Notes: generated by a model from the sequence alone, not told the origin. A stretch of 64,000 nucleotides of DNA from Candidatus Nomurabacteria bacterium (GCA_029288775.1 JARIGQ010000004.1:3303-67302); one strand, 5' to 3'. Shown: positions 5,631-52,985, numbered from the stretch's first letter. Translations and numbers: made by a program.

Positions 5631-5693
5631 CTGCATCTACTGCATTACTATACTACTTGCTATACTGTGTGTATGTTAAAGGTCTCGCGTTCC

Positions 5694-6759: not shown

Positions 6760-6837
6760 TATACATAGAAAGGACTAGACGGGCTGTATTAAAGTTAATT
6801 TCCTTTAGGTCCAGTTTCTTGAGTACTTTTGGTAATT

Positions 6838-7446: not shown

Positions 7447-7481
7447 GAAAACCGCCCCTCTGGTAAGTATGGCGGTTTTCT
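7447..7481 (-). terminator. Rho-independent terminator downstream of the YegP-like gene
   Basis: AAAACCGCC ... GGCGGTTTT stem with a 14-nt loop and a T-rich tail on the minus strand. Confidence 0.6.
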
Positions 7482-7548
7482 CAGTGTGTTCGTACGATTA
7501 CTCGAACGAAGTGACGTCTTTGTTTGATGCGTTACGGTTGCTTCATGG

Positions 7549-7845: not shown

Positions 7846-7953
7846 CTATAATTCATTTACTTAAATCTGATAAACATGAAACAACTGTCTGAGATATAGT
7901 GTATATCTTCAGCGTGCTATACTCAATAGCAACAAGGGAAGTTATTCACATAT

Positions 7954-8364
7954 ATGGAAAAGAAACTTTCGTACGTAGGGAATATTGGAACGATTGTACA
8001 GAAGAATGACAATTTTCGCGAGGTACTTTTTACCGGGACTAAGTCGCAGCTTGTGGTCATGTCTATTCCAGTCAAAGGGGAGGTGGGAGAAGAAATTCAC
8101 GAGCATGTCGAGCAGACGCTTTATATTATTTCGGGCATCTGTAAGGTGATACTGGATGATGTTGAGCATGTAGTATCCGGTGGAGATGTAGTGGTGGTTA
8201 CTCCTGGAACCAAGCATAATTTCATTAATGTCGGAGAAGATATTGTAAAGATTATTACGACATATTCGCCACCTAATCATATTGATGGTCGAGTACACAC
8301 AACGAAAGAGGACGCAGATAATGATAGCGAAGATGAAGCGATCGGTCATTCCTACACAAGCTAA
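7954..8364 (+). CDS. Cupin-domain protein
   Basis: Two-His cupin motif pattern (GEEIHEHVEQTLYIISG ... GDVVVVTPGTKHNFINVG). Confidence 0.65.
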   Translation: MEKKLSYVGNIGTIVQKNDNFREVLFTGTKSQLVVMSIPVKGEVGEEIHEHVEQTLYIISGICKVILDDVEHVVSGGDVVVVTPGTKHNFINVGEDIVKIITTYSPPNHIDGRVHTTKEDADNDSEDEAIGHSYTS

Positions 8365-18860: not shown

Positions 18861-19095
18861 TTAAAAGAGGTCATTTTGGGCAAAAATTACAAAAAATTCA
18901 TCTTTTTGAGGGTGCTATAGAACGACCATAGAACGCTTCTCTAGAGGGCGTTCTAACCCCCTTAATAGCGGGGGGATAATTTATGCAAAAAAGTTAAAAT
19001 CACTTTTTAAGATAAGGGTTTTTTGTTTGGACTTTATCCACATTTTTTACTACTTTTATTCACGATTTTTACTATACTTAATAGTAATAAATTGC

Positions 19096-22000
19096 ATGTC
19101 AAAGCTCAGCAATTCAGGGTTCAGAAAAGTTCTTTCAAGGGTAGCTAACCATATAGCTCTCTTTGTCTTTTCTGGTTTGATTTTTGCATCCAGTACTGCT
19201 TTTGCATTTGCTGCACTTTCTTACTCTGCGCCACGTCAGCCTTTCGCTAGCTTTAAGTTTGCTCACACATTCTCACTTTCAGAACTTTCACCACAGGCTG
19301 TTGCCTCTAAAGTGTTTGCGCTTTCCTATACCTTGCCTTCGGTTGCGCAGAACGTGGCTTCTCTCTCACGCCCACTCGTTGCTTCTATTCCTACTGATCT
19401 TGGATCGGGTGTAACTTTGGCAGATACACTCCCTGTACTTGCGCTTTCACTTCCGGTTATTCCTGCAGGTATCCCTCAGGCAATTGCTCACGAAATTGCT
19501 ACGATTTCCCTTCCACAGATTTCTTTGAATATTCCTGCACTTGCTGTGCGTCCAATTGACGAGCACGCTGTAGTGCTCTCAGGGACAGAGGATCGTTCAA
19601 TCGGCGTTGCAGGTACGGGACTCACACTTGTAGGAGGCATAACTCCTGAGGATGTTGTACCGCATGTGCTTACCTCTACAACATTTACCCTAAGTGCACT
19701 TTCTTCCAAGTTTGCAACATTCACACCTCCTCATGCATCACTTGCGCTTCTTCCTGTTACATCAAAGCAAGGCATGGTGCTTGGGGTAAGTACAACCAAT
19801 ACTGCGCTTGCACAGACGAAAAAGACTCTCCCGCTTATCGACAAGCTTTCTCTTGCGCTTTACTGTTCATTTACCAAGAACAATGTTGACCGTACACGCT
19901 GCAATTATGATGCGATTGCTGACGGTTCTATCCCGGTGTCTACGGCGTCATCTGTAGCTGCAACGACTCCAGCTGCGATTCCAGCAACTCCAAGCAATTT
20001 GTTTACATCTAACGATCAGGGTGTGGCTTCTCCAACCTTTATCACCAAGTACATCACCCAGTACGTAGGTGTCCCAGGAACTCCTGGACGTGATGGTAAG
20101 GATGGTGTAAATGGAGTTACTTCTACAGTAAACGGTATTCTTCCTCCAGCAGGGTTGGGATCATACATTATCCCTTCATATTCTTCACCTTCAACAGCAA
20201 TCGGCATTTCTACTATCGGCTACCTGAAGGATACAACCATCGAGAATCCAACAATTACCCAAGGTACTGCCGTTAATCTCTCCCTCACGACTCCGATCCT
20301 TAATAGTCCAACGCTTAAGGATGCGGTGTTTACAGGCCTTTCTCTTTTCACTAGTCCAGCATCGTTTACTTCAACGGTTGCAATCAACAGCCTTACAGCA
20401 ACATCATCCGTTATTACTAACGCAAGTACGACAAATGCATATATTGCAAATCTCTTCGTAGATGCCGCTACTTCTACCAATTCATACGTAAGCCAGCTTG
20501 TAGCGGCTTCATCTACACTCTCTGATGCTGTTATCACTAATTCCACAACTACGAATGCGTACATCGCAAATCTCGTTGCTGCATCTTCCACACTTACGGA
20601 TCTTATTGCAACGAATGCTGCGTTTACAAACTCCACAACAACCAATGCGTTCATCTCCAGTCTTGCGCTCGTAAACGGCAGCACGACCAACTCCACCACT
20701 ACGAACTCGTATATCACGAATCTCTTTACGCATAATGCAACGACGACCAATGCCATCATAACCAATTCGACTACTACTAACGCATATATCACTTCTCTTG
20801 CGGCGGCTTCAACGACAATCGATGATCTTGTAACCACTCGCGCAACATCAACCGCTCTTTTTGCAAATCTTCTTTCTGCAATCGATACATTTATCACCAA
20901 CCTTACTGCTACCAACCTCACCGCAACCAACGCAACTGTTGCAAATGCAACGACAACCAACTCAACTACCACTAACGCGTATGTTGCCAATCTCTCTACG
21001 GATAATGCCACAACAACAAATGCATATGTAACAAACCTTACAGCATCATCCACAACAATTGGAGATTTAATAACCACTCGCGCAACATCAACCGCATTCT
21101 TCTCAACACTTCTTTCTGCAATCGATACATTTATTACGAATCTTACGGCTATCAACTTAAACGCAACCAATGCAACTATTGCAAACGCCACCACGACTAA
21201 TTCAACAACCACGAATGCATATATTGAAAATCTCTCTGTAGGTACAAGTTCCGCAACATCGCTTACAATAGGTGGCGATCTAAGCGTAGGTGGCACTTCA
21301 ACGTTCGCGACAACCTCATCCACCTATGCAGCGATTGATACTGCATCGACAACCAATCTTTCTGGTACTAACTTCTGGTCTACGCTTGCAACTATCATAA
21401 GCGCAACTATCACGAATCTTATTGCAACCAATGCAACCACTACCAACGCTACCTCTACCAACTTTTATGCTTCAAACGGAGTTATCGATAACGCGACTAC
21501 GACAAATCTCTTCACACAGACGCTTTCTGTAGGTAATGGATACATCCAGGGAGATCAGTCAGTGCAAGGATCATTTAATGTAGCGGGCACTTCTACACTC
21601 GGATCCAATGTATTCCTTAATGGTAATGTGGTGATCGGTACTTCAAGTAATGAATTGCTTACCGTCAATTCTCTCATTAACTCAGATGTTACTCCTGCAC
21701 AGAATAAGGTATATGATCTCGGTACCCCATCATTCTATTGGAGAACGCTTTATGCAGACTCTATCAACGTAAACTCTATTTCTGCGGCATCGACGACAAT
21801 TTCTGGAACTTCAAACAATTCGTTTACGATTAATTCAGACAATAATACTAACGACCTCGAAGATTCTCAGCTTGTGTTCTACCGCGGTCTCGTAACGCCA
21901 AATGCCATCCTGCGCTGGAATTCTGCCCTTAGCCGTCTCGAGGCTAATCAGTCATTCAAGATTCAGAACGAAACTCCTTCAGTGGGAACCACTACGCTTA

Positions 22001-37000: not shown

Positions 37001-40000
37001 GATTTGGAACGATCAACTTCGACGTAGCCGGTGTTAATTCTGTAATGACCCTCGATTCAAACAGCCGTGTCGGTATTGGTACAACTTCGCCCGGATCTCT
37101 CTTCTCTGTACAGGGAAATGGTTACTTCGGAGGCAATATTACAGCGACAGGTACAATCACATCGCTTGCAACAGGTACTTCAACTCTTAATGGTAATCTT
37201 TCTCTGGCATACCAGACAGGTATCTTTACAACAAGCAACGGTACAAGTACATTGCTCCAAGTAACTCGTAGCGATGGTACTCAACCAGGTCTCTTCCGTA
37301 CAAACGGATGGAGAGATTTCACTGTAAGCGGCGCGTTTGGCGTAGGTTATGATCTTGCAACCACTACAGGTTCTGCTGGTGCAGGCAATCTCCTTGTGTC
37401 TGGAAATATTGGTATTGGTACAACGAGTCCCGCAGCAGCCCTTCATCTTACAGGTAGTTCTAATATGGCCCTTCGTATCCAGTCTTCTGGCGTAAATGGG
37501 TACGCTGAACTCAAGAATGCTAGCGTGAACGGATCACCTTCACAGTTAAATGTGTCTTCAGATAATAATGACGACACCCAGCCTGCATTTACTATTAACG
37601 CTTTCCGCACTACAGGAGGTGTTGTAGGCAACCTAAATGCAGCAAAGTCACTTCTCTCAGTGGCAGCTAGTGGTACTAGCGTGTTTGATATCAAGCAATC
37701 AGGAAATGTTGGTATCGGTACTTCAACTCCACAGTCTGCACTTGAAATTACTGGTGCGAACAAGAAGCTTACGTTCTCGCTTGCCACTACCACAACTACG
37801 TTCTCACAGATTTACAATGATGGAAATAACCTTAATATTTGGAGTCAAAGCAATAGCGGATCCCTTATTAACTTCCAGGTTAATGCTCAAACTTTGAGCC
37901 TCGCTCCAAATCTTTTCGGGGCATCTAACTATTGGGGCTTTGATGGTCAAACTGTTACAGGGCGAGACTTTGGTATTCGTAGCGGCGCAGGTATGATATT
38001 CACTACAAATACTAGAAACTTTGCAAGTCCAGCCCTCTATCTTGCAAGTAGTTCAGCTATTGCACTTATCGGTGTAGGTACTTCTTCTCCAAGCGCAACA
38101 CTCTTTGTACAAGGTTCTGCTTCATCTACGCTTAACCCATTTGCTGTTGCTTCCTCATCAGGTACTAATCTCTTCACCATTAATCCAAGCGGTAACGTAG
38201 CTATCGGAATGACTCCAGTGTCCGCAGGGCTTGTAATAAATGGTATCGATAACGGAGCAGGAGGATCACCTACTGGAGCTGGAGGTCTACGCGTATATCG
38301 TCCGAATAGTGGATCACAATATATCAGTCTTGATTACTCAGATGGTAGTCAAGGATACCTTACAGCTAATGGAGATAAGGGATTCAACCTTGTAAACTAC
38401 GGCAGCTCTACAGGAAATAATATTCGCATCGTAAATAACTATGCAAACGCAAGCGTAAGCAATGGTATCTTCGTAAGTACTTCCAATAACGTAGGTATCG
38501 GTACCACTACCCCAGGTTCACTCTTTTCTGTACAAGGAAATGCATATGTTGGAGGTAACGTTACTGCAACGGGTACGCTTACCACACTCGGTACAGCAAC
38601 TTCATCTGTGATGGGATCCCTGGTTATCGGTACAAGTACTATGACTTCTGTAGCGGGCCAGCTCGATGTCTTTGCATCTGCTGCAGGAGTCGGTTCATAT
38701 ATTCGTGGCAATAACCCTTCAAATTCAAATAACCTTGTTCTCGGTATTGCAAATGGTTTCAATATTGCACCTACCGCTATGACAGGATTTTACAATGATT
38801 CCGGTAATAACGTTGGTCTTCGATTCTTGGATACTAACGGTGCTGTGTCACGCGCCAAGATTGGTACAAATAGCGATACGTACTTTGCTGTCGGGCTAGG
38901 TAATGTCGGTATCGGTACCTCAACTCCTGGATCTAAGTTCTCTGTAACTGGCGATTCATACTTCGGAGGAAATATTACAGCAACAGGTACGCTCAATGTT
39001 TTCAACAACATCCGTATCTCAGGATCAGGTAATGGTCTTTACTTCCCAGATGGAACATTCATGGGAACTGCAGCGGGTACTTCAACAGGCATTACATCCC
39101 CTACTGATCTTGCACTCGCAGCAGATAACGATACTGATGGATCAGGTGTACTTACTTTCTCAACCTTCGGTCTTGAGAGAATGCGAGTACTTAACAACGG
39201 CTCAATTGGTATCGGAACCACTTCACCAGCTGGTCTCCTCGGGGTAAATGGTGATGGATACTTTGGCGGCAATCTTACTGCAACAGGAACTCTTTTCTCT
39301 TCAAACATTGATACGGATGCCAACAATGCAACTCTTCGTCTAAAGACACAAGGAATAACACGTCTTACAATTGATAATTCAAACACTCAATTCAACAACA
39401 ATGCTATTCCTAATGTTGACAATACTCGCTCGCTAGGTTCACTTTCAGCTAGATGGAATTCACTTAATATTGGTACAGGAACATCAACTTTTGCTGGCGC
39501 TGTAGGTATAGGCACCACAACACCTGCTGAAGCTCTTGAAGTTGCTAATGGGAATATTCAGATCGGGTTCAATCAGTTCTTGAAGGGTCGATCAGCTAGC
39601 GGTGCATCCTTCAATCTTATTGGTGTTAATTCATCAGGAAATACAACTGTAGGTAATCTCAACCATCTTATCTTCATCGCTAGCGGTGCTGAACGTGCTC
39701 GTATCGATGGTCCAACAGGAAACTTCGGTATCGGTACTACTTCACCTGGATCACTCCTTTCCGTACAAGGAAATGGTTACTTCGGAGGTAACCTTACTGC
39801 GACAGGTACGATAACTGGTGCAAGTACTATTACTGCTTCAGGTCAGATTACATCAGGTAATATTGGTTTTCAAACAATCGGTAATGGTAATGGTACATGG
39901 TTTGGAAGGCAGCTCACTATTACGGGTGGAACCTATATTGTCAGTGCGGCCAATGGTACGACGTTTAATTCTGCTACGACATCTTTCAATGGAGCTGTTG

Positions 40001-42591
40001 CAATCGGTACAAGTTCTCTTGCCACGACACCGTCATTCCTTACTATTTTTGGTTCATCGACACTTCAATCCACAAACCTCTTTACTCTTGCATCGTCTAC
40101 TGGAGCTTCACTCTTTACCGTGACATCTGCAGGAAACGTAGGGATTGGTACCACTACTCCAGGTTCACTTCTCTCGGTACAAGGTGATGGATACTTTGGG
40201 GGTAACCTTACTGCCACGGGTACCATTACTTCACTTTCTGCAGGAAATAACTACTTTGCAGGAAACGTAGGCATCGGTACAACCACTCCAGCTAGAGTAT
40301 TGGAAGTTTTTGGAACATTTAATGTCGGCACGTCTTCACTCAGTCAGATTTTTGCAGATACTTCATCTAGACAAGTAGGTATTAACGCGACATCATCTTC
40401 TCTTATTTCCAACTCAAGCCTTACGATAGGTGCAACATCTTCTCTTTCTACAGGTATCTCAATAACAGGCATTACTCAAGGTACCGGATTTTCAGCCGCT
40501 TCCATTACAAGTGGTACTGCCCTAACTGCAAGCAACTTATCTACTGGAACAGGATTCAATCTTCCGGCTTTGACCTCAGGAACAGGAATAAATATTGGTT
40601 CATCTAACAATATATCTACCGCAAAGGGCTTAACCTTTAGCACTGCAAGCGGTGGCATGACTACGGCTTCTGCTATTAACATTACTGGTTCAGCTGCGAT
40701 GAACGCTGATTACTCAGGAGCACTTATCAATCTCGACTCAGTACGTAGCGTGTCCGTTGCTTCCACACGTTTCCATTCAGGAAATATGATGAAAATTGCT
40801 CCACAATACGGAGTTAACGGTTCCGGTTCTGCAACGCTTCTAGTTTCTGGTACTACTACCATGATTACCCGTACACTTAGTAACGCTTCCACAGGAGCAA
40901 CTTCATCCCTTCAAATCACTGCACCACTTTTCTCTCTCGCCAATCTTTGGAGCGGAAATACAGGTACTACAACAGACTCAAGCGCACTCTTTGATCTTTA
41001 TCAAGGCTTCGCAACATCTACTGGTACGCTTCTCCGTGCAAATAGCTTGGGGTCAGGTGCTCTTGCAACATTTGTAGGTTCTGGTAACTTCGGTATCGGC
41101 ACCTCCACACCTACGGCTAAGCTCGATGTATACGGAACAGGTTCTGCTCAGCCATTCCGTGTCTCTTCATCAACTAGCGCATCTCTCTTCGAAGTAGAAT
41201 CAAATGGAAACGTGGGTATCGGTACTACAACGCCTGGTTCACTTCTCTCCGTAAATGGTGATGGATACTTCGGAGGTAACCTTACTGCAACTGGTACGCT
41301 TTCGATCCTTAACAACTCTTCATTTACCGGAGCTGTTAACGCCTCTTCTACATTTGCTGTAACAGGAAATGCAACATTTTATGGCGCGATCAACGTTTCC
41401 GGTTTAGCAACTTTTGCAAACGCTTCAACAACCAACCTTTCGGTTGCTGCAGCTAGCTACTTCGGTGGAAACACAAGCGTTATGGATCAGAATGGAAACC
41501 TCGGGTTAGGTACAACTACTCCTGGACTTGCGCTCGATATCTGGACTGCGACAACTTCAACGATTGACATGCTTCGCATCGGAAGCGGAAATGGTATTGC
41601 GTTCCGTGTAGATTCTGCTGGCAATATTTTCTCAAATGGTGCAACGACAATCGGTGCTCCTGCTGACGTTGCGGAAAGTTATCCTGCACTTGAAGCTGTG
41701 GATGCGGGTACGGTGGTTGCATTTGGAACATCTACCGTCGCTTGGAGTTCGACTCGTGGAAGCGCGACATCGACCGCATCTTCATCGGATGTATACCAAA
41801 TCTCAGGCATCAAGAAGGCTCGTGATCAGTTCGAGGCAATCGGAATCGTGTCTACTCGCCCAGGACTTCACATTGGTGCGGATGTACAAAATGGCGTACC
41901 GGTAGCACTTGCTGGACGTGTACCGGTAAAGGTTACGGATGAAAACGGCGCGGTCAAGGCTGGAGATTTCCTTACCGTATCTCTTACTCGCCCCGGATAC
42001 GCTATGAAGCTTACTGGCGAAGGAAAGTCTATCGGACGTGCTATCTCAGACTACGTTCCAGGAAATGACAAAGTAATCGCGTATGTGGAGAATGGTTACC
42101 AGAAGGTTGATATGAATGGCAAGTCTGCTACGACGACAAACATGCTCACAACTGGAAACGTAGACCTTAATGCAAATGGCGTTGCGATCTACAACATCAA
42201 GAGCCTCGCGTCTGCATCCGGTGCATGGTCAATTTCTGAAGACGGTCGCATCATTGCAAAGGTAATCTGTCTTGAGGATGTATGTATCAATAAGGATCAG
42301 CTTACGAAGATCTTGAACTCCACAGGACAGACGGGAATGGTTGCAGGAACTAGTACTACAAGTAGCCCAGTAGATACAGTAAATACAATAGGCAATGGGA
42401 CGAGTACGGATGCGGTAAGTACAGTAGATACAGGCAACACTGAAACTACTGCATCTACTTCTCCTACTGCGTCCACTGGTTCTACTGGGTCGACTGCATC
42501 TACTGAAACCACTGGACCTACTGGGTCTGCTGAAACTACTGCACCCTCCGCTCCGGTATCGGTAGCGCCAAGTGACACTCAGACCCCATAA
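19096..42591 (+). CDS. Giant (7,831-aa) secreted/surface repeat protein, putative adhesin or fibre
   Basis: One uninterrupted ORF. It has an N-terminal signal/TM segment (HIALFVFSGLIFASSTAFAFAA), a Thr/Asn-rich repeat stalk, about 60 copies of a GxVGIGTTTPxxKLxVxG module, a globular C-terminal domain and a Thr/Ser/Gly tail. The extended ORF begins at 19027. Confidence 0.85.
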   Translation: MSKLSNSGFRKVLSRVANHIALFVFSGLIFASSTAFAFAALSYSAPRQPFASFKFAHTFSLSELSPQAVASKVFALSYTLPSVAQNVASLSRPLVASIPTDLGSGVTLADTLPVLALSLPVIPAGIPQAIAHEIATISLPQISLNIPALAVRPIDEHAVVLSGTEDRSIGVAGTGLTLVGGITPEDVVPHVLTSTTFTLSALSSKFATFTPPHASLALLPVTSKQGMVLGVSTTNTALAQTKKTLPLIDKLSLALYCSFTKNNVDRTRCNYDAIADGSIPVSTASSVAATTPAAIPATPSNLFTSNDQGVASPTFITKYITQYVGVPGTPGRDGKDGVNGVTSTVNGILPPAGLGSYIIPSYSSPSTAIGISTIGYLKDTTIENPTITQGTAVNLSLTTPILNSPTLKDAVFTGLSLFTSPASFTSTVAINSLTATSSVITNASTTNAYIANLFVDAATSTNSYVSQLVAASSTLSDAVITNSTTTNAYIANLVAASSTLTDLIATNAAFTNSTTTNAFISSLALVNGSTTNSTTTNSYITNLFTHNATTTNAIITNSTTTNAYITSLAAASTTIDDLVTTRATSTALFANLLSAIDTFITNLTATNLTATNATVANATTTNSTTTNAYVANLSTDNATTTNAYVTNLTASSTTIGDLITTRATSTAFFSTLLSAIDTFITNLTAINLNATNATIANATTTNSTTTNAYIENLSVGTSSATSLTIGGDLSVGGTSTFATTSSTYAAIDTASTTNLSGTNFWSTLATIISATITNLIATNATTTNATSTNFYASNGVIDNATTTNLFTQTLSVGNGYIQGDQSVQGSFNVAGTSTLGSNVFLNGNVVIGTSSNELLTVNSLINSDVTPAQNKVYDLGTPSFYWRTLYADSINVNSISAASTTISGTSNNSFTINSDNNTNDLEDSQLVFYRGLVTPNAILRWNSALSRLEANQSFKIQNETPSVGTTTLTVQAGAGQGTTNLFELLDNSGSKLAMFNSQGWLGIGTSSPVAALDVNGPIKSGGDVKNVLNINDKGSGNLQSTLRILTNIPYADGLQALDAITITGYDWRNSKPLSLRLVFYIFGGNFIQYGASSQGGLAPRISLGNVNGKVAILLDRSSGGGGGDWAFSTLSVDVMNNNNLWTQSDLSGWSYDYGNLSGASNVVALSYSSQLGNASTTGLTATNIFSTTLAVTGTSTFGTNGSNVGIGTTSPQATLEVAGAAAGLTVNRTHVQCGASIGLVNNSNVSNSWSFKNSDSPCTPGTLGNLYFIQNSTEKMVLTSGGVLGIGSTTPSLKLTVQGAAYIGGNIVATGTLSLGTSTLFTTSAGNVGIGTSTPLAKFAIVDSNQTSTSSSGAVGMANANLSIFTNQFGQDFGGSVGFGGYQGSSGQQTLFGQISGRKENASDPNARGYLAFSTLGTGAGVAYPFAERVRISSDGSLVINSNGYDATSTKLLIVKGSASQAVNLQEWQNSFGTALSVVDASGNLGLGTSTPGSKLSVQGSAYIGGNFTATGTLTTLGTGSSSIAGALGVGIASPSYFLDVVPPSGTAVDLFRVASSTSPGGALVVKNNGSVGIGTTTPLNTLVVSGPALGGITIDRGNSNSPNLTFSSNGTTILSQIRGVIGGGMAFTSSSLTEWGHFDASGNFGIGTSSPASPLHVYSNSSNAYIITDTSGTNNTGVQFRRDNTIKWQLFSDSLDNFGIFDGTNKIATIQRGAPANSLFVLANGNVGVGTSTPGSKLSVQGDSYLAGNVTATGTLTVLTSGTSRIGSVSRYVTMFDNGSGQVELAFNGSDANASRISTDNNDLWIRPATGVIGIAAGTTSPRLKIGSISSGWGMQTTLAAPMNFESLSVDINTNPFVFNRVGAWGGNPNVKLFKVQDAGNDVFSVGGVLNAINGLTVGPSATSGMVSLTAVGLDTNIPFAINAKGSGSINIGGTSTGNIVLATGGGSVAIGTSSPSSQLEVSGGAASSYLTLSTNSGVQATGIKLVASGTTTNWIIGSQGGAVTNLQFVSGAGNSLTLDSTANMVFSNTNNHSISIAQNSATNIPGKQLTVSAGNAALGLATNFDGGTLVLAAGQSTGTGTGKIQFQTSPAGSSGTATNTLITAMTILGGGNVGIGTSTPGSLFSVQGNSYIGGNETATGTLTVLGTGNSSFAGNVGIGTTTPGNPLVITASGVTSSLFSIASSTGANLVQLASDGVTGSSLFNASTGENRFNINPNGQYVRVSGAGVYGWSPSTNAGVSADTGLSRISAGVVAVGNGTTGSAAGTLVAGAIGIGTTTPSAKLMIDGTIANTNSGQGLVISATNGTTVGPRLAIFPNGNASAAIQTLVNGALNFLSSAGNVNMTIADATGNVGIGTSTPGSRLSVQGDSYFGGNLTATGTITSLSAGNSYFAGNIGIGTSSPTHALTFASTSSGIAFYNTSDQTTNYERFVEAWNPSNNTFNLFQSFGGSAANRSVRLGIAGGAGATAPDSYLDVVSNGTFNFRSANPAATTYTTLGLGALQNASSYNQTTVAITPTINQSGTGSYTALLINPTETGVGSGNNYLINAQVGGSTRMVLTNTGNLGIGTTTPLSKFVIDSGSAVIRGTNNNLQVVDNGTGRSFVFGVAGTSGGFFNNATIGDSILRASTGNKMMLGIDNGTGNAAPVLTISGTNVGIGTTTPGRYLTIQAVAGSSAGFDLADPNTNQVWSFINGTTGSPVGAGNFAIYDTTNQATRMVVSNAGNVGVGTTTPGSLLSVQGNGYFGGNLTATGTLSVLGSATSTFAGAVGIGTTTPSYNLSVVGNTYTSGSINFGGAGNNNLGVLSQVGTNDTYLSNHLHTQFGLWVRSTDTNRVKGMDQSSGNSSNLGLYVNFGEKMTIDTNGNVGIGTTTPGSKLSVQGDAYIGGNVTATGTFAIGTSTLFTNTAGQVGIGTTNPSYRLDVRTTGAATGLAIWDGSNGSIFGRFGITRVGATANTFSFINYPSYAFDATTTISSGNFGIGTTTPGSKLAVQGDGYFGGNLTATGTITALGGFTNFGSTTLTDASSTNLTATNFWSTLANLVTANITNASTTNLSATGATFGDASITNTLTVASNTSLATTTISGYLGVGTTSPSQLLTVGNNNQFTVSSTGTVAISSAGQLSFTGGSIWPIITRNTATGGLILNTQNAVTSSNSLLSIRTNGGSDAFTLLADGRLGLGTSTPASKLTIISPDNSQGTSIVAAYANNLTQGTSLRYDGLYAIGSNSSVDVRLVPQGVGRVLIPNGNVGIGTSTPLSVLHIEGTNSSAGGITLTSSAGNVNRFQIFPLGSISTAFKNMGGGDTQFQNSAGTAQLSIQTSTGNVGIGTTTPGSLLSVQGDSYFGGNVTATGTLSVLGSATSTFAGAVGIGTTTPQWKLSVEDPTSAFITLNNSTGNAGTFAGVRFQIAGKDRYTAALNAGGDQIYSRFNASGAYQNDVLALKSTGDVAFNTNQLYVTNATGNVGIGTSTPGTNLVVGNSGAFTVNSSGQVTTGSTLTMAGSNNAITAYNGIGGSGIFGLSRQNDVANASLQIAAYGGIGFTVNSAGGSITPASTSSSMFIATSGNVGIGTTTPTKSLSVINSSLGGDQLLLGSTGTANPAFLQMGVADTGSNTTVDLSAINNASQNAYVRLFRQTNTIGSKVFQILKGDGTANADTQITVAGTTFFNLGGGNVGVGSSSPVGRLAVTGSGLSNGIAFQITDASNTPRFTLQDNGTTTFGQLATNTNAILLSSQNGTLSEVYDNSDMRWSLDSNGSVRYGLSAGGTSQLGTLRLGSGGSVSPSSYSYITGGGAGQAQLNFFVGSTSSPSITLTNSGKVGVGTTSPVDPFHVIGNGRFMTSGSSEYLTVGTYDSNNAYLRYATFNVSRFVTGVDASDGKYKIGTGNDFSATKFAIDTNGNVGIGTTSPISVLHIVASNATISLQSTTTNGFSGQNMYDSNGNLAASFQYGNSAASVFPNAMFLGTRIANAPVIFISGGSASGGSTNERMRIDSNGNVGIGTSTPSYPLDVSGFINTDKNSGYKMDGLTVLYSTSTQQSVFVGQGAGAGIVSSAATTSVLRNTAMGYLALNLATSTGSNTAFGARTLSNVQSGAQSFNGTANTAVGAGSGFSVTTGFGNSSFGESSGGAVTTGAANTSLGYRAGNNITTGSNNVAVGGFTTAVGALFSNQTGSNNVAVGAAALAGTTSVSISSNTAVGHLAGFNMQGNNNTLLGYQAGYDMSTGSQNIVVGYYPTTNVGITTGSNNILIGQDLRTGLSQTGSNQLNIGNLIFATGLGSGSTLSTGNVGIGTSTPGQKLDVVGNIRLTGTGSNSIEFYDSTNAANGPQVLSSITGINTVNHGSGALQFFTAMNNTLTEAMRIDRTGNIGMGTTSPGSKLSVQGDGYFGGNLTATGTLNVLGTGSSTFASDLTVNGDNGRIYGNYLFTDPGSAGSTTLRLGTQGVARLLLSSADATFTGNIIPNGDNTKTLGTLAARFNGLNIGTGNSTFAGNVGIGTTTPNQKLVISGTSLSATQPEISLYNTGSGGIGWSLISTDNNNSALGGKFAILPTGGSSVVAPFIISGNNVGIGTSTPGSKLSVNGDSYLAGNVTATGTLNVLGTGTSTFVGALGVGVANPNAVFHVSSPTSTSNVVARIDNTSGSYGWLFQNAGGTTSRIALYGMDNTGAQTLRLDPAAASYFNGGNVGIGTTTPGSLLSVQGNGYFGGNVAATGTLAIGTSTLYTTAQGNVGIGTTTPLSTLYVEGSSPVLTVSSTGGRQITIAPATGAIDSVNSALHFNRFSSQAVSIGFSSASHLRVGQAPENSFGNTALLYIGNTETGTPGFVLDKAPGQTSDILQVRSATTTTGDIFTIKSNGNVGIGTTTPSQLLTVGNNNQFTVTSAGAVNIPSGNLYALTMTTGAIANNNSNTYANLVFGNAGLTASRNVADSNPSLIVNQANASSTGDILDLQAAGITKVAFAQNGNVGIGTTSPLYALEVASSSAFGVPSATQAPILIRGGASGTAMLTFTRTVGATAQYSWALAGGGLSFSDDLNGGVTTNVFGDNNINQLYIGQRSRITDTSGKPSLLAGQSYSNLAGSDINAGLFTIRGGLGNGAGTPGDITFETGNVLATGSTPQSATRRMTILANSGNVGIGTTTPGSLLSVQGNGYFGGNFTATGTITSLGTATSSFVGALGVGTSTQSYKFAVMGTNGIGVDTESAGGSAVGLVSINNATIRLNTANFVQLEGTQGTRFTNNGASVEYGRITSAGLGIGTTTPGSKLSVQGDSYLAGNVTATGTLNMLGTSSSTIAGALSIGTTSAPAALLDVGGNTRIGLNTISFLGTATISSQGQININSGSTRDIQLNTNTGNFSVLGNGNSNNFTVLGSNGNVGIGTSSPSYKLEVNGAANIRVATDQNMRFGSNSNGAFLATYLDTQASFNTIQLYGSTILLNPNAGGNVGIGTTTPLGSKLAVQGDGYFGGNLTATGTLTVLSSALFGGNVLPNVTNTYDLGSASARWNNLFVNNFTASSSVADYFTAASTTATSTFNGNVVIGSGSFAYDASSTQTTISNLAIGNLAFDQDAGQVSWVDLPISGATATGTIMSYTSQLGGNNMLTVYGEHDGQGGIQNPRFGFGTTTPTSYFHIAATGTNPFFTVGTSTNQGLFTILSNGYVGLGTSTPSSNLYIQGSDVTPNLTVASSSGATQFTVLANGNVGIGTSTPGSKFSVTGDSYFGGNVYATGTLTSVGAITSSTATASSSIAGGLKIASGGLGSLQNGLTVGNTTGLNHTVDIGATGMATLRLSDSGGRSITFGSNRNSYDAISGTAAFVGVQDGGSLLLRATQGTSNHVILQPGATGTVYAIGQSFAVVPNPSATYSALFNVGTGSSTQQLVAVATTTNAGIFNILANGAVGIGTTTPTTPLTVVGNSSFFPSTNGVVTIASASWNANAPLKMGQIGSSGAIQFARASDGNGVASIGYASGTNSTDFRIGSNGGFGTINFDVAGVNSVMTLDSNSRVGIGTTSPGSLFSVQGNGYFGGNITATGTITSLATGTSTLNGNLSLAYQTGIFTTSNGTSTLLQVTRSDGTQPGLFRTNGWRDFTVSGAFGVGYDLATTTGSAGAGNLLVSGNIGIGTTSPAAALHLTGSSNMALRIQSSGVNGYAELKNASVNGSPSQLNVSSDNNDDTQPAFTINAFRTTGGVVGNLNAAKSLLSVAASGTSVFDIKQSGNVGIGTSTPQSALEITGANKKLTFSLATTTTTFSQIYNDGNNLNIWSQSNSGSLINFQVNAQTLSLAPNLFGASNYWGFDGQTVTGRDFGIRSGAGMIFTTNTRNFASPALYLASSSAIALIGVGTSSPSATLFVQGSASSTLNPFAVASSSGTNLFTINPSGNVAIGMTPVSAGLVINGIDNGAGGSPTGAGGLRVYRPNSGSQYISLDYSDGSQGYLTANGDKGFNLVNYGSSTGNNIRIVNNYANASVSNGIFVSTSNNVGIGTTTPGSLFSVQGNAYVGGNVTATGTLTTLGTATSSVMGSLVIGTSTMTSVAGQLDVFASAAGVGSYIRGNNPSNSNNLVLGIANGFNIAPTAMTGFYNDSGNNVGLRFLDTNGAVSRAKIGTNSDTYFAVGLGNVGIGTSTPGSKFSVTGDSYFGGNITATGTLNVFNNIRISGSGNGLYFPDGTFMGTAAGTSTGITSPTDLALAADNDTDGSGVLTFSTFGLERMRVLNNGSIGIGTTSPAGLLGVNGDGYFGGNLTATGTLFSSNIDTDANNATLRLKTQGITRLTIDNSNTQFNNNAIPNVDNTRSLGSLSARWNSLNIGTGTSTFAGAVGIGTTTPAEALEVANGNIQIGFNQFLKGRSASGASFNLIGVNSSGNTTVGNLNHLIFIASGAERARIDGPTGNFGIGTTSPGSLLSVQGNGYFGGNLTATGTITGASTITASGQITSGNIGFQTIGNGNGTWFGRQLTITGGTYIVSAANGTTFNSATTSFNGAVAIGTSSLATTPSFLTIFGSSTLQSTNLFTLASSTGASLFTVTSAGNVGIGTTTPGSLLSVQGDGYFGGNLTATGTITSLSAGNNYFAGNVGIGTTTPARVLEVFGTFNVGTSSLSQIFADTSSRQVGINATSSSLISNSSLTIGATSSLSTGISITGITQGTGFSAASITSGTALTASNLSTGTGFNLPALTSGTGINIGSSNNISTAKGLTFSTASGGMTTASAINITGSAAMNADYSGALINLDSVRSVSVASTRFHSGNMMKIAPQYGVNGSGSATLLVSGTTTMITRTLSNASTGATSSLQITAPLFSLANLWSGNTGTTTDSSALFDLYQGFATSTGTLLRANSLGSGALATFVGSGNFGIGTSTPTAKLDVYGTGSAQPFRVSSSTSASLFEVESNGNVGIGTTTPGSLLSVNGDGYFGGNLTATGTLSILNNSSFTGAVNASSTFAVTGNATFYGAINVSGLATFANASTTNLSVAAASYFGGNTSVMDQNGNLGLGTTTPGLALDIWTATTSTIDMLRIGSGNGIAFRVDSAGNIFSNGATTIGAPADVAESYPALEAVDAGTVVAFGTSTVAWSSTRGSATSTASSSDVYQISGIKKARDQFEAIGIVSTRPGLHIGADVQNGVPVALAGRVPVKVTDENGAVKAGDFLTVSLTRPGYAMKLTGEGKSIGRAISDYVPGNDKVIAYVENGYQKVDMNGKSATTTNMLTTGNVDLNANGVAIYNIKSLASASGAWSISEDGRIIAKVICLEDVCINKDQLTKILNSTGQTGMVAGTSTTSSPVDTVNTIGNGTSTDAVSTVDTGNTETTASTSPTASTGSTGSTASTETTGPTGSAETTAPSAPVSVAPSDTQTP
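20068..20118 (+). other. Short collagen-like G-X-Y x5 segment within the giant protein
   Basis: GVPGTPGRDGKDGVNGV. Confidence 0.4.
20392..21252 (+). repeat. Asn/Thr-rich 11-residue-periodic repeat region including a ~240-bp tandem duplication
   Basis: Repeats of the NSTTTNAYI[AT]NL type; two near-identical ~80-aa units (DDLVTTRATSTALFANLLSAIDTFITNLTATNLTATNATVANATTTNSTTTNAYVANL...) spanning 20800-21240. Confidence 0.8.
22090..41545 (+). repeat. Array of about 60 degenerate coding repeats (GNVGIGTTTPGSKLSVQGDGYFGGNLTATGTL modules with variable spacers)
   Basis: The motif recurs at irregular 50-150 aa intervals. Many copies share about 90 % nucleotide identity over about 150 bp (for example 27280-27430 versus 29060-29210). 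Confidence 0.85.
41485..42330 (+). other. C-terminal globular domain of the giant protein (tail-fibre C-terminal / intramolecular-chaperone-like), followed by a T/S/G-rich tail
   Basis: Non-repetitive segment ADVAESYPALEAVDAGTVVAF...GIVSTRPGLHIGADVQNGVPVALAGRVPVKVTDENGAVKAGDFLTVSLTRPGYAMK..., similar in architecture to the C-terminal domains of phage or bacterial tail-fibre-like proteins. Confidence 0.45.
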
Positions 42592-42623: not shown

Positions 42624-42708
42624 TAATTTCAGTACATTACAGTACAATACAGTAATCAGTGGATGTGATAGAAGATAGTAACAAGTACATGCAGTAAATA
42701 CAGTGAAT
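42624..42708. repeat. Intergenic CAGTA-array element A (CAGTA arm only)
   Basis: CAGTA at 42630, 42640 and 42650 (exact 10-bp phase), CAGTG at 42657, CAGTA at 42692 and CAGTG at 42701. Confidence 0.7.
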
Positions 42709-42729
42709 GCTAGGCGCAGGAAATATAAC

Positions 42730-45251: not shown

Positions 45252-45437
45252 ATGGTAGTACGAATGAGACACACCCGAGCGCATACGGCTAACCGTCGCT
45301 CACACCACGCGCTTAAGGCAGCGAACCTTGTTGCTTGCAAGAACTGTAACGCCATGAAGACTCCGCACCGCGTTTGTGACGCCTGCGGCTATTATCGTGG
45401 CCAGAAAGTGCTTACAATAAAGGCAAAGGTGCAGTAA
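45252..45437 (+). CDS. rpmF: 50S ribosomal protein L32
   Basis: RRSHHALKA...C.NC...K.PHRVC.CGYYRG, the L32 signature with a Zn-ribbon. Confidence 0.8.
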
Positions 45438-52898: not shown

Positions 52899-52970
52899 TC
52901 CGCAGTAGCTCAGCGGTAGAGCAGCGCGCTGTTAACGCGTTGGTCGTAGGTTCGATCCCTACCTGCGGAG
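52899..52970 (+). tRNA. tRNA-Asn (anticodon GTT)
   Basis: Manual fold: acceptor TCCGCAG/CTGCGGA, D-arm GCTC-AGCGGTA-GAGC, anticodon stem GCGCG/CGCGT with loop CTGTTAA, T-arm GTAGG-TTCGATC-CCTAC, discriminator G; CCA is not encoded. Confidence 0.85.
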
Positions 52971-52985
52971 CAAAAGTCTTGAGTC

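What the first reader, a model, noticed from the sequence alone, without database searches (positions are those of the whole stretch)
19096..42591. A single 23.5-kb gene encodes a 7,831-aa secreted repeat protein
One uninterrupted reading frame occupies 37 % of the window. The protein has a signal/anchor segment, an Ala/Pro/Leu-rich N-terminal region, a short collagen-like GXY stretch and an Asn/Thr-rich repeat stalk. It then carries about 60 beta-rich GNVGIGTTTP...KLSVQG modules and a distinct C-terminal globular domain. This architecture is typical of giant surface fibres or adhesins, which are thought to mediate host attachment in reduced-genome episymbionts. No catalytic motif is visible, so the function is inferred from architecture only.
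Basis: partly seen in the sequence, partly recalled or inferred. Interest (0 to 1): 0.75.

Follow-up and report, generated by a model that had tools for sequence, protein, structure and literature searches.

The report
Giant phage-tail-fibre-like surface fibre, CPR bacterium
A tiny-genome CPR bacterium spends 23.5 kb on one intact gene for a 7,831-residue secreted fibre built from about 62 phage-tail-fibre-type modules and ending in a phage-type self-cleaving folding domain, probably a very long host-grabbing adhesin.

Summary
Window 19096-42591 (+) is one uninterrupted ORF of 7,831 aa. It has a signal peptide, an Ala/Pro/Leu-rich base, six collagen-like triplets, an Asn/Thr stalk, about 62 'GNVGIGTTTP' motifs and a distinct C-terminal domain.

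The tools add identity. The repeat body is homologous to phage tail-fibre shafts and to the crystallised Bdellovibrio MAT (mosaic adhesive trimer) fibres. The repeated motif is their beta-helix capping loop.

The host is a Paceibacteria-type CPR bacterium. The gene lies between rnhB and nusB among housekeeping genes. At this site relatives carry orthologues of 475, 943, 3,080 or 3,327 aa, or none. These share the N-terminal ~1,050 aa, and the long ones also share the C-terminal ~520 aa. The middle is unalignable.

Repeats are diverged at DNA level, so mis-assembly is unlikely.

Most likely it is a Sec-exported homotrimeric fibre, roughly 0.3-0.5 um long, folded from its C-terminal chaperone, which then self-cleaves. 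Host adhesion, trimerisation and cleavage are inferred, not shown.

Verdict: a new variant of a known kind; moderately high interest.

The parts
18957..18975 (+). Terminator-like hairpin after rnhB. It separates the giant gene from the upstream transcription unit.
   Evidence: CCCCCTTAATAGCGGGGGG plus a T-rich tail. 2 sites found against 0.3 expected in shuffles.
19096..42591 (+). Complete coding sequence of the 7,831-aa fibre protein (784 kDa, pI 5.4). It is identical to the public unnamed NCBI protein P0164.
19096..19212 (+). Sec-type signal peptide, aa 1-39: basic n-region, hydrophobic core aa 19-31, A-F-A at 37-39. Cleavage is predicted by rule only.
   Evidence: hydropathy. The orthologues have equivalent N-termini ending in VYA/A, SYA/L and VNA/F.
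19213..20067 (+). Ala/Pro/Leu-rich 'base', aa 40-324, with the conserved LPLIDKLSLALYC...RCNY Cys pair (C257/C269) and YITQY. It is the presumed cell-proximal retention domain. No known family matches it.
   Evidence: Conserved in 11 syntenic CPR loci. Only 17 cluster representatives carry it in 1.84 billion proteins. Pfam gives no hit even at E<=1.
20068..20121 (+). Collagen-like GXY x6, aa 325-342. 16 of the 17 family representatives have a GXY run of 15-27 residues at the same place, so it probably acts as a trimer register element.
20122..21705 (+). Conserved SYIIPSYSSPS segment followed by the Thr/Asn/Ala-rich stalk, aa 343-870. Hydrophobic period is 5.0 residues with an ~80-aa super-repeat. 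The fold is unknown.
   Evidence: No PDB or Pfam match. The stalk is shared with L015, L014, L009, L007 and P0043.
21706..22080 (+). Post-stalk junction, aa 871-995. It lies inside the best-conserved stretch of the family (aa ~750-1057, 53-66% identity to orthologues). It contains the first P..D..YDLGxxxxxWRxLY motif, at aa 873.
22081..41487 (+). Module array, aa 996-7464: about 61 beta-rich domains, each opened by a GNVGIGTxxPxxxLxV capping-loop motif. It is homologous to phage tail-fibre shafts and to Bdellovibrio MAT beta-helix domains. Orthologues cannot be aligned here.
31183..31905 (+). Atypical insert, aa ~4030-4270, with NTAxG/SNNVAVG-type short repeats and no capping loop (288-aa gap between motifs). 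Part of it matches a tail-spike PHROG.
   Evidence: phrog_4636 tail spike, E 2.4e-11, at aa 4053-4139. No Pfam or PDB sequence hit.
41488..41664 (+). Last capping loop and short distal segment, aa 7465-7523. This would be the mature fibre tip if cleavage occurs.
41662..41676 (+). A7523-D-V-A-E7527, the predicted autocleavage motif (cut predicted before D7524).
   Evidence: The family profile aligns D-l-A-E to residues 1-4 (DFAE) of the cleaved phi29 gp12 fragment 3GQH. D is conserved in 24/25, A in 25/26 and E in 25/26 family members. All 80 viral homologues have [YF]ADLAE.
41665..42108 (+). G2-type (phi29 gp12-like) intramolecular chaperone core, aa 7524-7671.
42109..42345 (+). C-terminal extension, aa 7672-7750, with the conserved TTGNVDLNANG...CLEDVC (C7725/C7730) subdomain. 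Only the close CPR homologues have it.
42346..42588 (+). Thr/Ser/Pro-rich low-complexity tail, aa 7751-7831, with short DNA tandem repeats. The orthologues have similar Pro/Thr/Glu tails.
42703..45051 (+). Downstream gene for a 782-aa secreted or membrane-anchored protein with three LamG (concanavalin-like lectin) domains. No terminator lies between it and the giant gene, so it may be co-expressed. It is part of the same variable surface-protein island.
   Evidence: The equivalent position in L085 holds a different 1,616-aa protein.

Best explanation
The gene encodes a Sec-exported, homotrimeric, phage-tail-fibre-like surface fibre of a CPR (Paceibacteria-type) bacterium.

Proposed working:
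1. The signal peptide takes the unfolded 784-kDa chain across the single membrane.
2. The conserved N-terminal base (aa 40-324) holds the fibre on the cell, by an unknown partner.
3. The collagen-like triplets and the Asn/Thr stalk form the proximal shaft.
4. About 61 triple-beta-helix-type domains, each opened by a capping loop as in Bdellovibrio MAT fibres, form a shaft roughly 0.3-0.5 um long. That is as long as or longer than the cell.
5. Folding is nucleated at the very end by the C-terminal phi29-gp12-type intramolecular chaperone. Three chains therefore register only after the whole chain has emerged.
6. The chaperone then removes itself by autocleavage before D7524, releasing a 308-aa, 31-kDa fragment and exposing the distal tip.
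7. The fibre captures or holds host cells by binding their surface polymers.

Shown here: the intact ORF, homology of the body to tail-fibre and MAT shafts, fold and motif homology of the C-terminal domain to the gp12 autochaperone, the chromosomal CPR context, and conserved ends with a hypervariable middle among orthologues.

Inferred: trimerisation, cleavage, surface retention, fibre length and host binding.
For: - ORF integrity and diverged repeats.
- Body, PHROGs: tail-fibre families phrog_9942 (E down to 6e-32) and phrog_18345 (2e-27), tail spike phrog_4636.
- Body, sequence: phmmer hits to crystallised Bdellovibrio MAT fibres Bd2133 8OND (E 2e-7), Bd3182 8OJN/8ONB/8ONC and Bd2439 8OL4/8ONF. 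The alignments are centred on MRIDxxGNVGIGTTxPxxKLxVxG.
- Body, homologues: 280 homologues of one body segment. Many end in PF13884 Peptidase_S74, and one of those listed is named 'tail fiber domain-containing protein'.
- Body, fold: the top 14 Foldseek PDB hits of the body model are all MAT fibres, followed by T4 gp34.
- MAT properties (trimeric beta-helix, capping loops, conserved N-end and variable distal end, surface display, glycan binding) come from PMC10769870.
- In 80/80 viral contigs the domain is at the extreme C-terminus of tail-fibre ORFs.
- The gp12 domain is an intramolecular chaperone that is needed for trimer folding and is cleaved off afterwards (PMC3357383, PMC4690869).
- Extracellular signature: signal peptide, three paired Cys, and collagen-like triplets in 16 of 17 family representatives.
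- Context: housekeeping genes on both sides, and codon usage close to theirs (r 0.83 against a control of 0.91).
- Orthologues at the same rnhB-nusB site share the base. The long ones share the same C-terminal domain (P0168 3,327 aa seen on 21 contigs; P0166 3,080 aa; P0169 1,946 aa).
- Giant surface proteins are already proposed as host-attachment devices in the CPR predator Vampirococcus (PMC8080830).
Against: - No direct evidence of expression, secretion, trimerisation, cleavage or binding.
- The giant itself gets no Pfam or NCBIfam hit. Its C-terminal region gets no PHROG hit, and PF11962 is reached only through distant relatives.
- The body model is a monomer of modest confidence (pLDDT 70.5, pTM 0.41). 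Its Foldseek TM-scores are low (0.13-0.49), so the fold evidence for the shaft rests mainly on sequence.
- From my own recollection of the primary gp12 study, which I could not read, release of the phi29 gp12 chaperone involves ATP. ATP is not available outside a cell.
- The domain is followed here by about 160 extra residues of unknown role.
- How the base is retained on the cell is unknown. A cleaved signal peptide would leave no membrane anchor.
- The fibre length is a scaling estimate from two MAT fibres, not a model.
Confidence: 0.65

Rival explanations
1. The molecule is the same (a trimeric tail-fibre-like fibre), but its role is structural and not host-specific. It could be an envelope coat, a spacer between cells, or a biofilm or aggregation fibre.
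For: No receptor-binding domain of known specificity was found. Vampirococcus shows a thick fibrous coat filling the space between its own cells as well as towards the host (PMC8080830). Some relatives carry only a 475-aa stub, or nothing, at this site. The gene is therefore dispensable within the clade.
Against: Conserved ends with a hypervariable, mosaic middle and distal part are what the MAT paper lists as the signature of recognition fibres, and are typical of phage fibres. A pure spacer would not need about 60 dissimilar domains. Every homologue with a known role is a receptor-binding fibre.
Confidence: 0.15
2. The fibre is an offensive tailspike-like device. One or more beta-helix modules would be depolymerases that degrade host capsule, S-layer or wall, as in phage tailspikes.
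For: aa 4053-4139 match a tail-spike PHROG (phrog_4636, E 2.4e-11). phi29 gp12 and the S74 proteins K1F and P22-type spikes are enzymes as well as adhesins.
Against: No glycosidase, lyase or esterase family or catalytic motif was detected in any segment, even at relaxed thresholds. The best structural relatives (MAT fibres) are adhesins without reported enzymatic activity.
Confidence: 0.1
3. It is a real phage, prophage or tailocin tail-fibre gene and not a cellular gene.
For: Both the shaft and the C-terminal chaperone are of phage type.
Against: It is flanked by DnaE, RNase HII, RNase J, L32, NusB and RNase III, and no phage gene lies in the 64 kb. Orthologues sit at the same chromosomal site in several genomes. 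It has a Sec signal peptide and a CPR-specific N-terminal base. Codon usage is near-native. The longest viral ORF in the 80 loci examined with this chaperone is about 2,125 aa.
Confidence: 0.03
4. It is an assembly artefact (repeat expansion or collapse, or a chimera) or a decaying pseudogene.
For: Many related MAG contigs break inside the orthologous gene. That shows the locus is hard to assemble. This exact protein is on record from a single contig.
Against: There are 7,831 codons without a stop, while the other frames are open for at most 112 codons. The longest exact repeat is 50-59 bp and the repeats are at most 90% identical over at most 234 bp, which is below what collapses assemblies. 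N- and C-terminal architecture match independent orthologues of 3,080-3,327 aa. One of these was assembled on 21 contigs, 17 of them 0.2-1 Mb.
Confidence: 0.04

Closest known systems
Bdellovibrio bacteriovorus MAT (mosaic adhesive trimer) fibres: Bd2133, Bd3182, Bd1334, Bd2439 (PDB 8OND, 8OJN/8ONB/8ONC, 8OML, 8OL4/8ONF; Caulton et al. 2024, PMC10769870)
   Same: Both are secreted cellular (not viral) fibres of a bacterium that lives on other bacteria. The shaft is built of beta-helix domains opened by the same GNxGxGTxxPxxxLxV capping-loop motif. There is direct sequence similarity (E 2e-7), and MAT fibres are the top Foldseek hits. Both have a conserved N-terminal end and a variable, mosaic distal part. 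Both are related to phage tail fibres.
   Different: MATs are about 600-1,100 aa, and 21 separate genes exist in one genome. Here one gene of 7,831 aa concatenates about 61 domains. The MAT N-terminal ~130-aa domain was not recognisable here; the base is CPR-specific and includes collagen-like triplets and an Asn/Thr stalk. MATs end in an S74 chaperone or an adhesive tip, whereas this protein ends in a G2 (phi29 gp12-type) chaperone. The envelope is different too: CPR cells are thought to have a single membrane, Bdellovibrio is diderm.
Bacillus phage phi29 pre-neck appendage gp12, C-terminal autochaperone (MEROPS/Pfam Peptidase_G2, PF11962; PDB 3GQH, 3GQK, 3SUC)
   Different: The giant scores below Pfam detection for PF11962. 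Its domain has an extra insert (aa ~7550-7570) and is followed by about 160 further residues. The gp12 body is a single right-handed beta-helix tailspike of 854 aa with enzymatic activity, not a modular capping-loop shaft. Cleavage has not been shown here.
Phage tail fibres and tailspikes with an S74 intramolecular chaperone (T5 pb1, K1F endosialidase; Pfam PF13884)
   Same: Homologues of the body modules commonly end in PF13884. The general logic is the same: an elongated trimeric beta-helix folded from a C-terminal chaperone that is then removed.
   Different: There is no S74 domain and no SDxxxK motif at the C-terminus. The chaperone is of the other (G2) type, so shaft type and chaperone type are combined differently. 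In the 80 viral ORFs examined, the G2-like domain almost never occurs with capping-loop shafts (one motif in one ORF).
Giant surface proteins of CPR and other ultrasmall or predatory bacteria (Vampirococcus lugosii 1,392-4,163 aa, PMC8080830; Omnitrophota giant genes, bioRxiv 10.1101/2023.11.21.568195)
   Same: All are very long secreted or membrane proteins in host-dependent or predatory bacteria, proposed to mediate contact with host or prey.
   Different: The domain content differs: WD40, PKD, integrin and fibronectin in Vampirococcus; SecA-helicase and antiparallel beta-helix with cell-wall hydrolases in Omnitrophota. Neither paper reports tail-fibre or MAT-type shafts or a G2 chaperone. 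Omnitrophota giants are much longer, so 7,831 aa is not a size record.
Trimeric autotransporter adhesins (YadA, BadA, SadA)
   Same: They are long trimeric 'lollipop' fibres with repetitive heads and stalks. One Parcubacteria homologue of the body is annotated 'putative hemagglutinin'.
   Different: There is no C-terminal beta-barrel anchor and no YadA/Hep_Hag repeats by Pfam. Polarity is opposite (N-terminal base, C-terminal chaperone). CPR cells are thought to lack the outer membrane that TAAs need.

Membership tests
MAT (mosaic adhesive trimer) superfamily, Caulton et al. 2024 | Shaft of beta-helix domains with the capping-loop motif (V-G-G/N-pi-x-x-P-x-x-x-L type; GNLGLGTAAPTSALHV in Bd2133) | tested here: met
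   62 motif copies. phmmer alignments to 8OND, 8OJN and 8OL4 are centred on the motif. MAT fibres are the top 14 Foldseek hits.
MAT (mosaic adhesive trimer) superfamily, Caulton et al. 2024 | Conserved beta-rich N-terminal domain of ~130 aa directly after the signal peptide | tested here: inconclusive
   No MAT N-domain sequence or structure was available for direct comparison. The giant's aa 1-450 hit no Pfam family at E<=1. An exhaustive phmmer search with aa 140-440 found only 17 representatives, 16 of them with the same collagen-like run. There is no sign of the MAT N-domain, but aa 40-140 were not searched exhaustively.
MAT (mosaic adhesive trimer) superfamily, Caulton et al. 2024 | Homotrimeric, intertwined fibre | not testable with these tools
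   Only monomer prediction was available. Indirect support: collagen-like triplets, homology to trimeric shafts, and a trimer-forming chaperone type.
MAT (mosaic adhesive trimer) superfamily, Caulton et al. 2024 | C-terminus is an S74 chaperone (SDxxxK) or an adhesive tip domain | tested here: not met
   No PF13884 hit. The only SDxxxK is a chance match at aa 3873. The C-terminus is a G2-type chaperone instead.
MAT (mosaic adhesive trimer) superfamily, Caulton et al. 2024 | Displayed on the cell surface and binds prey or host epitopes | not testable with these tools
   Needs microscopy, proteomics or glycan arrays.
Peptidase G2 / phi29 gp12-type intramolecular chaperone (PF11962) | Fold of the gp12 C-terminal autochaperone | tested here: met
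Peptidase G2 / phi29 gp12-type intramolecular chaperone (PF11962) | Asp and Glu of the D-x-x-E motif at the cleavage site (the start of the cleaved fragment) | tested here: met
   The profile aligns D-l-A-E with residues 1-4 (DFAE) of the 163-residue chain 3GQH. D is conserved in 24/25 and E in 25/26 family members. That chain residue 1 is gp12 D692, and that these residues are catalytic, rests on my recollection of the primary gp12 paper, which I could not read.
Peptidase G2 / phi29 gp12-type intramolecular chaperone (PF11962) | Significant match to the Pfam model | tested here: not met
   The giant's C-terminus gets no Pfam hit even at E<=10. Distant family members do: P0023 27.1 bits (cutoff 25), P0027 21.5, P0030 21.0. 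Viral homologues also miss the model.
Peptidase G2 / phi29 gp12-type intramolecular chaperone (PF11962) | Autocatalytic cleavage and release after trimer folding | not testable with these tools
   Requires expression of aa ~7300-7831 and of D7524 and E7527 mutants.
Peptidase S74 tail-fibre chaperone (PF13884) | C-terminal S74 domain with the Ser-Lys dyad (SDxxxK) | tested here: not met
Trimeric autotransporter adhesin | C-terminal YadA-type beta-barrel anchor and an outer membrane | tested here: not met
   No such domain. The C-terminus is the G2-type domain plus a Thr/Ser/Pro tail.
Prophage or tailocin tail fibre | Location among phage structural genes | tested here: not met
   Housekeeping genes lie on both sides, and the site is the same in several genomes.
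Bacterial collagen-like proteins (Pfam Collagen PF01391) | Long G-X-Y array recognised by the model | tested here: not met
   Only six triplets and no Pfam hit. One body homologue (P0051) does carry PF01391.

The most novel reading that the evidence does not exclude
The gene could be a 'library on a string'. Where Bdellovibrio uses about 21 separate MAT genes, this CPR lineage may have fused dozens of dissimilar receptor-binding beta-helix domains, captured serially from phage tail-fibre genes, into one half-micrometre multivalent fibre.

One supporting hint is a motif found at four internal positions (aa 873, 4463, 5484, 6778). In the four phage fibres inspected, this motif lies directly before the chaperone cleavage site. 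The internal copies would then be scars of former fibre ends.

The rnhB-nusB site would be a recombination hot-spot that tunes both host range and reach, with products from 475 to 7,831 aa. That would give a genomic read-out of host range in uncultured CPR bacteria.
Probability: 0.2. Interest if true: 0.8.

Novelty: new variant of a known kind. Interest (0 to 1): 0.62.

Why it matters
How CPR/Patescibacteria find and hold their hosts is largely unknown. [quoted passage not shown]

This gene gives a concrete, testable candidate:
- It is a cellular fibre made from phage host-recognition parts, related to the fibres a bacterial predator uses to recognise prey.
- It has a defined predicted maturation step (cleavage before D7524).
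- It sits at a defined hypervariable locus (rnhB-nusB), where relatives differ 16-fold in length.

It also shows that the two known tail-fibre chaperone types (S74 and G2) can be swapped on the same shaft type. A genome that is probably under 1 Mb invests 23.5 kb in one fibre. The orthologous genes break many related MAG assemblies, so fibres of this kind are probably under-counted in CPR genomes.

Tried and rejected
- Pfam and NCBIfam on the whole protein in pieces: no hits. Relaxed Pfam (E<=1) on the base, stalk, junction, NTAxG insert and long inter-motif inserts: nothing credible.
- PDB sequence search of the stalk/junction and of the NTAxG insert: no hits.
- S74 chaperone: rejected. No PF13884, and no C-terminal SDxxxK.
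- Trimeric autotransporter: rejected, no anchor domain.
- Prophage origin: rejected from context.
- Diversity-generating retroelement: no reverse transcriptase or Avd-like gene among the window ORFs scanned. Avd-like 23S_rRNA_IVP genes occur only in relatives.
- N-glycosylation sequon enrichment in the Asn/Thr-rich protein: not enriched (165 against 177 +/- 11 in shuffles).
- tblastn against 50,697 annotated phage genomes: the C-terminal domain gave no hit. The body hit only one cyanophage structural protein. The phage link is seen only with profiles and in uncultured viral contigs.
- Exact look-up of the neighbouring RNase HII to find the source record: not on record.
- First viral scan with the 39-sequence alignment failed for lack of a conserved stretch. 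It was repeated with 11 sequences.
- Primary phi29 gp12 paper (PMID 19450535): not held. The residue numbering and the ATP dependence of gp12 chaperone release are therefore from memory only.
- Rfam and tRNA scans: only tRNA-Asn at 52899-52971, unrelated.
Full report

Yes. A single ORF runs from ATG 19096 to the stop at 42589-42591 on the + strand. It has 7,831 codons and no internal stop. The other two forward frames of the same stretch are open for at most 112 and 79 codons. The gene takes 36.7% of the window.

A mechanical start at TTG 19027 is possible. The ATG is preferred because it gives the same N-terminal layout as the orthologues. It is also the start used in the public record, where the identical 7,831-aa protein exists unnamed (NCBI source, one contig of 132,803 nt).

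Composition is Thr 14%, Gly 14%, Ser 12%, Ala 9% and Asn 9%, with only six Cys in three close pairs.

- A signal-peptide-like N-terminus. It is the only strongly TM-like segment.
- An Ala/Pro/Leu-rich region.
- Six collagen-like triplets at aa 325-342.
- A Thr/Asn-rich stalk at aa ~440-870.
- 62 HMM-detected GNVGIGTxxP motifs between aa 996 and 7465, with a median spacing of 98 aa.
- A different C-terminal domain.

**2. Artefact or pseudogene?**

This is unlikely. At DNA level the longest exact internal repeat is 50-59 bp. The best repeat pairs are 158 bp at 88% and 234 bp at 76%. Tandem Repeats Finder reports only short arrays. The modules are therefore old and diverged, not recent copies that an assembler could collapse or inflate.

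Independent orthologues of 3,327 and 3,080 aa have the same N- and C-terminal architecture. The 3,327-aa one was assembled on 21 contigs, 17 of them 0.2-1 Mb.

**3. Organism and context**

The flanks are ordinary chromosomal genes:
- Upstream: UvrC, ribonucleotide reductase, RNase J, an SBP_bac_5 binding protein, DnaE and RNase HII.
- Downstream: a LamG x3 protein, L32, NusB-NUDIX, RNase III, FtsJ and an ABC-F ATPase.

No phage gene and no retroelement was seen.

DnaE finds only Patescibacteria/CPR MAGs (Paceibacteria, Nomurabacteria, Yonathbacteria and similar). The best is 83% identical.

Synonymous codon usage of the giant gene correlates with that of the housekeeping genes (r 0.83, against 0.91 for the housekeeping half-versus-half control). 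The gene is therefore resident, not a fresh import.

A terminator-like hairpin follows rnhB at 18957-18975. None separates the giant gene from the LamG gene.

**4. The body is a phage-tail-fibre / MAT-type shaft**

Pfam and NCBIfam find nothing. PHROGs places aa ~1,300-6,900 in tail-fibre families: phrog_9942 (E down to 6e-32) and phrog_18345 (2e-27). One insert falls in a tail-spike family, phrog_4636.

A plain sequence search of the PDB hits the crystallised Bdellovibrio fibres Bd2133 (8OND, E 2e-7), Bd3182 (8OJN/8ONB/8ONC) and Bd2439 (8OL4/8ONF). The alignments are centred on '...MRIDxxGNVGIGTTxPxxKLxVxG'. These are the MAT proteins. They are surface-displayed, intertwined homotrimeric beta-helix fibres related to phage S74 fibres. 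Conserved 'capping loops' close each beta-helix, the N-terminal domain is conserved, and the tips are variable. One of them binds prey glycans (PMC10769870).

One body segment (aa 2340-2770) has 280 homologues at E<1e-5:
- Many end in PF13884 (Peptidase_S74).
- One is named 'tail fiber domain-containing protein'.
- One Parcubacteria homologue is called 'putative hemagluttinin'.

An AlphaFold model of that segment is all-beta but only moderately confident (pLDDT 70.5, pTM 0.41). This is expected for a monomer model of an obligate trimer. Its top 14 Foldseek PDB hits are all MAT fibres, followed by T4 gp34. TM-scores are low, so I treat this as supporting the sequence evidence and not as independent proof.

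48 of the 61 inter-motif segments have no BLASTP relative inside the protein. The shaft is therefore a chain of different domains linked by a conserved loop. Only 23 motifs carry the 'LSVQGxxYFGGN' extension, and 11 pairs lie 41-45 aa apart.

**5. The C-terminal domain is a phi29-gp12-type intramolecular chaperone**

The region aa 7480-7720 has 42 homologues. Family-wide conserved motifs are [GA]-A-D-x-A-E, GVVST.PG and ALAGRVPVKVT.E.G.I..GD.LT.S..PGYAMK.

Four lines of evidence agree:
- Distant members hit Pfam PF11962, Peptidase_G2 'IMC autoproteolytic cleavage domain'. P0023 scores 27.1 bits against a cutoff of 25.
- A profile of the family hits the phi29 pre-neck appendage C-terminal fragment (3GQH/3GQK). 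The D-l-A-E of the profile aligns to residues 1-4 (DFAE) of that 163-residue chain. By my recollection of the gp12 numbering, 163 residues corresponds to aa 692-854, so residue 1 would be the N-terminus created by autocleavage.
- The AlphaFold model (pLDDT 79.5, core above 90) has 3SUC and 3GQH as its top Foldseek hits.

In the family, D is conserved in 24/25 sequences, A in 25/26 and E in 25/26. The motif is present in the long orthologues P0166, P0168 and P0169. In the giant it is A7523-D-V-A-E7527.

The gp12 domain is documented as an intramolecular chaperone. It is required for trimer folding and is cleaved off afterwards (PMC3357383, PMC4690869).

IMG/VR holds at least 298 viral contigs with relatives of the domain. 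In 80 of the 80 inspected it is the extreme C-terminus of long ORFs (median 583 aa, maximum 2,125). It is always preceded by [YF]-A-D-[LV]-A-E. The proteins are tail fibres by PHROGs (phrog_19602). Almost none has a capping-loop shaft: one motif in one ORF.

This CPR family therefore combines an 'S74-style' shaft with the 'G2-style' chaperone.

In the giant the chaperone core (aa 7524-7671) is followed by a small conserved subdomain with a Cys pair (aa 7725/7730). A Thr/Ser/Pro tail (aa 7751-7831) ends the protein. Neither has a known role.

**6. A small CPR-specific family at a hypervariable site**

The N-terminal base (aa 140-440) is rare. An exhaustive phmmer scan of 1.84 billion cluster representatives found 17 proteins. 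These include the giant itself and members of 3,327, 3,080, 1,946, 1,525 and 1,131 aa. 16 of the 17 have a collagen-like run after the base.

tblastn finds the base next to rnhB in 11 related MAGs, and most of those contigs end inside the gene.

Where the site is complete, it holds:
- a 475-aa protein (base plus a short stalk) in GCA_021733405.1, with otherwise perfect synteny;
- a 943-aa protein in L002;
- a 3,327-aa protein in L085;
- nothing in L016.

Orthologues align with the giant over aa 1-1057 (up to 59-66% identity for aa ~600-1057). The long ones also align over aa 7308-7825 (48%). Nothing aligns in between.

Some members end in a different C-terminus ('...FDEAP' type), and L015 carries LVIVD repeats.

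Conserved ends with a mosaic, length-variable middle is the pattern the MAT authors list as the signature of a recognition fibre.

**7. How it most likely works**

Shown: the chain has an export signal, a tail-fibre/MAT-type shaft and a gp12-type C-terminal chaperone, and it is a resident CPR gene.

Inferred:
- Export by Sec as an unfolded chain.
- Retention through the conserved base.
- Registration of three chains by the C-terminal chaperone once the end of the chain has emerged. This fits a 7,831-aa secreted chain that must not fold prematurely.
- Zippering of the triple beta-helix domains towards the cell. The collagen-like triplets and the stalk would form the proximal shaft.
- Autocleavage before D7524, releasing a 308-aa, 31-kDa fragment and exposing the tip (aa ~7369-7523).

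Scaling from Bd2133 (370 aa spanning about 145 A) and Bd3182 (about 760 aa spanning about 550 A) gives 0.29-0.54 um for the 7,484-aa mature chain (PMC10769870). Each mature chain is 749 kDa, so a trimer would be about 2.2 MDa. From general knowledge of CPR cell sizes, not tested here, that length is comparable to or longer than a CPR cell.

The function I commit to is long-range capture and holding of host cells through multivalent binding of surface polymers. The adjacent LamG lectin-like protein may act as a partner.

Confidence:
- The molecular identity (tail-fibre-like fibre plus G2-type chaperone): about 0.9.
- The full mechanism including host adhesion: 0.65.

**8. Rivals**

- A non-specific structural or spacer fibre: 0.15.
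- A depolymerase-bearing tailspike-like weapon: 0.10.
- A true prophage fibre: 0.03.
- An artefact or pseudogene: 0.04.

The reasons are given in the rival entries.

**9. Comparison and novelty**

It works like a MAT fibre or a phage tail fibre. As to membership:
- The shaft and capping-loop criterion is met.
- The MAT N-terminal domain could not be recognised (inconclusive).
- The C-terminus is neither S74 nor a tip domain.
- For Peptidase G2, the fold and the motif are met, but the Pfam model is not.

Giant surface proteins in CPR are a known idea (Vampirococcus, up to 4,163 aa, with other domains). Far longer bacterial proteins exist in Omnitrophota. In the held literature no paper connects MAT or tail-fibre-type fibres or G2 chaperones with CPR.

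I therefore rate it a new variant of a known kind:
- It is a CPR-specific branch with its own base.
- It has a swapped chaperone type.
- Its module count is extreme, 2.4 times the next-longest family member.

**10. Limits**

- Only monomer structure prediction was available.
- There are no expression or read-level data.
- The signal-peptide call is by rule of thumb.
- The fibre length comes from scaling.
- The gp12 residue numbers and ATP dependence are from memory, because the primary paper was not held.

Noticed in passing
window 42703-45051 (+): The gene directly downstream encodes a 782-aa protein with an N-terminal signal/TM segment and three LamG (concanavalin-like lectin) domains. No terminator-like site separates it from the giant gene. 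Its codon usage is much less native than the giant's (RSCU r 0.47 against 0.83; GC3 0.29). It may be a recently acquired partner adhesin.
   Followed up: partly
giant protein aa 873, 4463, 5484, 6778 (window ~21712, 32482, 35545, 39427); viral loci L124, L087, L100, L105: A motif P-x-x-D/N-x-x-x-(D/S/T)LGxxxxR[WF]xxL occurs four times inside the giant. In the four uncultured-phage tail fibres inspected, the same motif lies immediately before the ADLAE chaperone cleavage motif. The internal copies might be scars of former fibre ends, which would mean growth by fusion of fibre genes. Not tested.
   Followed up: partly
loci L001, L004, L009, L014, L039 and others (Patescibacteria MAG contigs next to dnaE/rnhB): Many related MAG contigs end 1-5 kb beyond rnhB, inside the orthologous fibre gene. 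Such genes systematically break short-read assemblies, so they are probably under-represented in CPR gene catalogues.
   Followed up: partly
L081:11561-11926; L085:799-1176 and 4581-4955: Relatives carry small PF05635 (23S_rRNA_IVP) genes beside the fibre gene or DnaE. From memory, this four-helix-bundle family also includes the Avd proteins of diversity-generating retroelements. None was seen among the window ORFs scanned, and no reverse transcriptase was found.
   Followed up: no
L015:3-4181 (-) and protein P0006: One orthologue (at least 1,393 aa, cut by the contig end) replaces most of the capping-loop array with LVIVD repeats ('VSGRYAYTAN...'). A homologue of the C-terminal domain (P0006) has LVIVD repeats after the chaperone domain. 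This shows how freely the distal parts are exchanged.
   Followed up: no
window 20413-21705 (aa 440-870): The Asn/Thr stalk has a sharp hydrophobic periodicity of 5.0 residues and an ~80-aa super-repeat. It has no PDB or Pfam relative, so its fold is unknown. It also causes the strong local GC-skew dip (-0.27 at 20-22 kb).
   Followed up: partly
window 31183-31905 (aa ~4030-4270): This is a 288-aa stretch without capping loops. It is made of short NTAxG / SNNVAVG-like repeats reminiscent of adhesin-head or beta-roll repeats. Part of it matches tail-spike phrog_4636, and nothing matches in Pfam or the PDB.
   Followed up: partly
window 6650-8280: This is the lowest-GC stretch of the window (0.40), with only short ORFs. 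A 98-aa Lys-rich ORF at 7549-7845 (-) looks by eye like a YegP/DUF1508 protein. A 136-aa ORF at 7954-8364 (+) looks cupin-like. Neither was scanned.
   Followed up: no
window 45252-45437 (+): A short ORF that looks by eye like ribosomal protein L32 (rpmF) lies between the LamG gene and nusB. This matches the gene order in the relative L082, where L32 is annotated.
   Followed up: no
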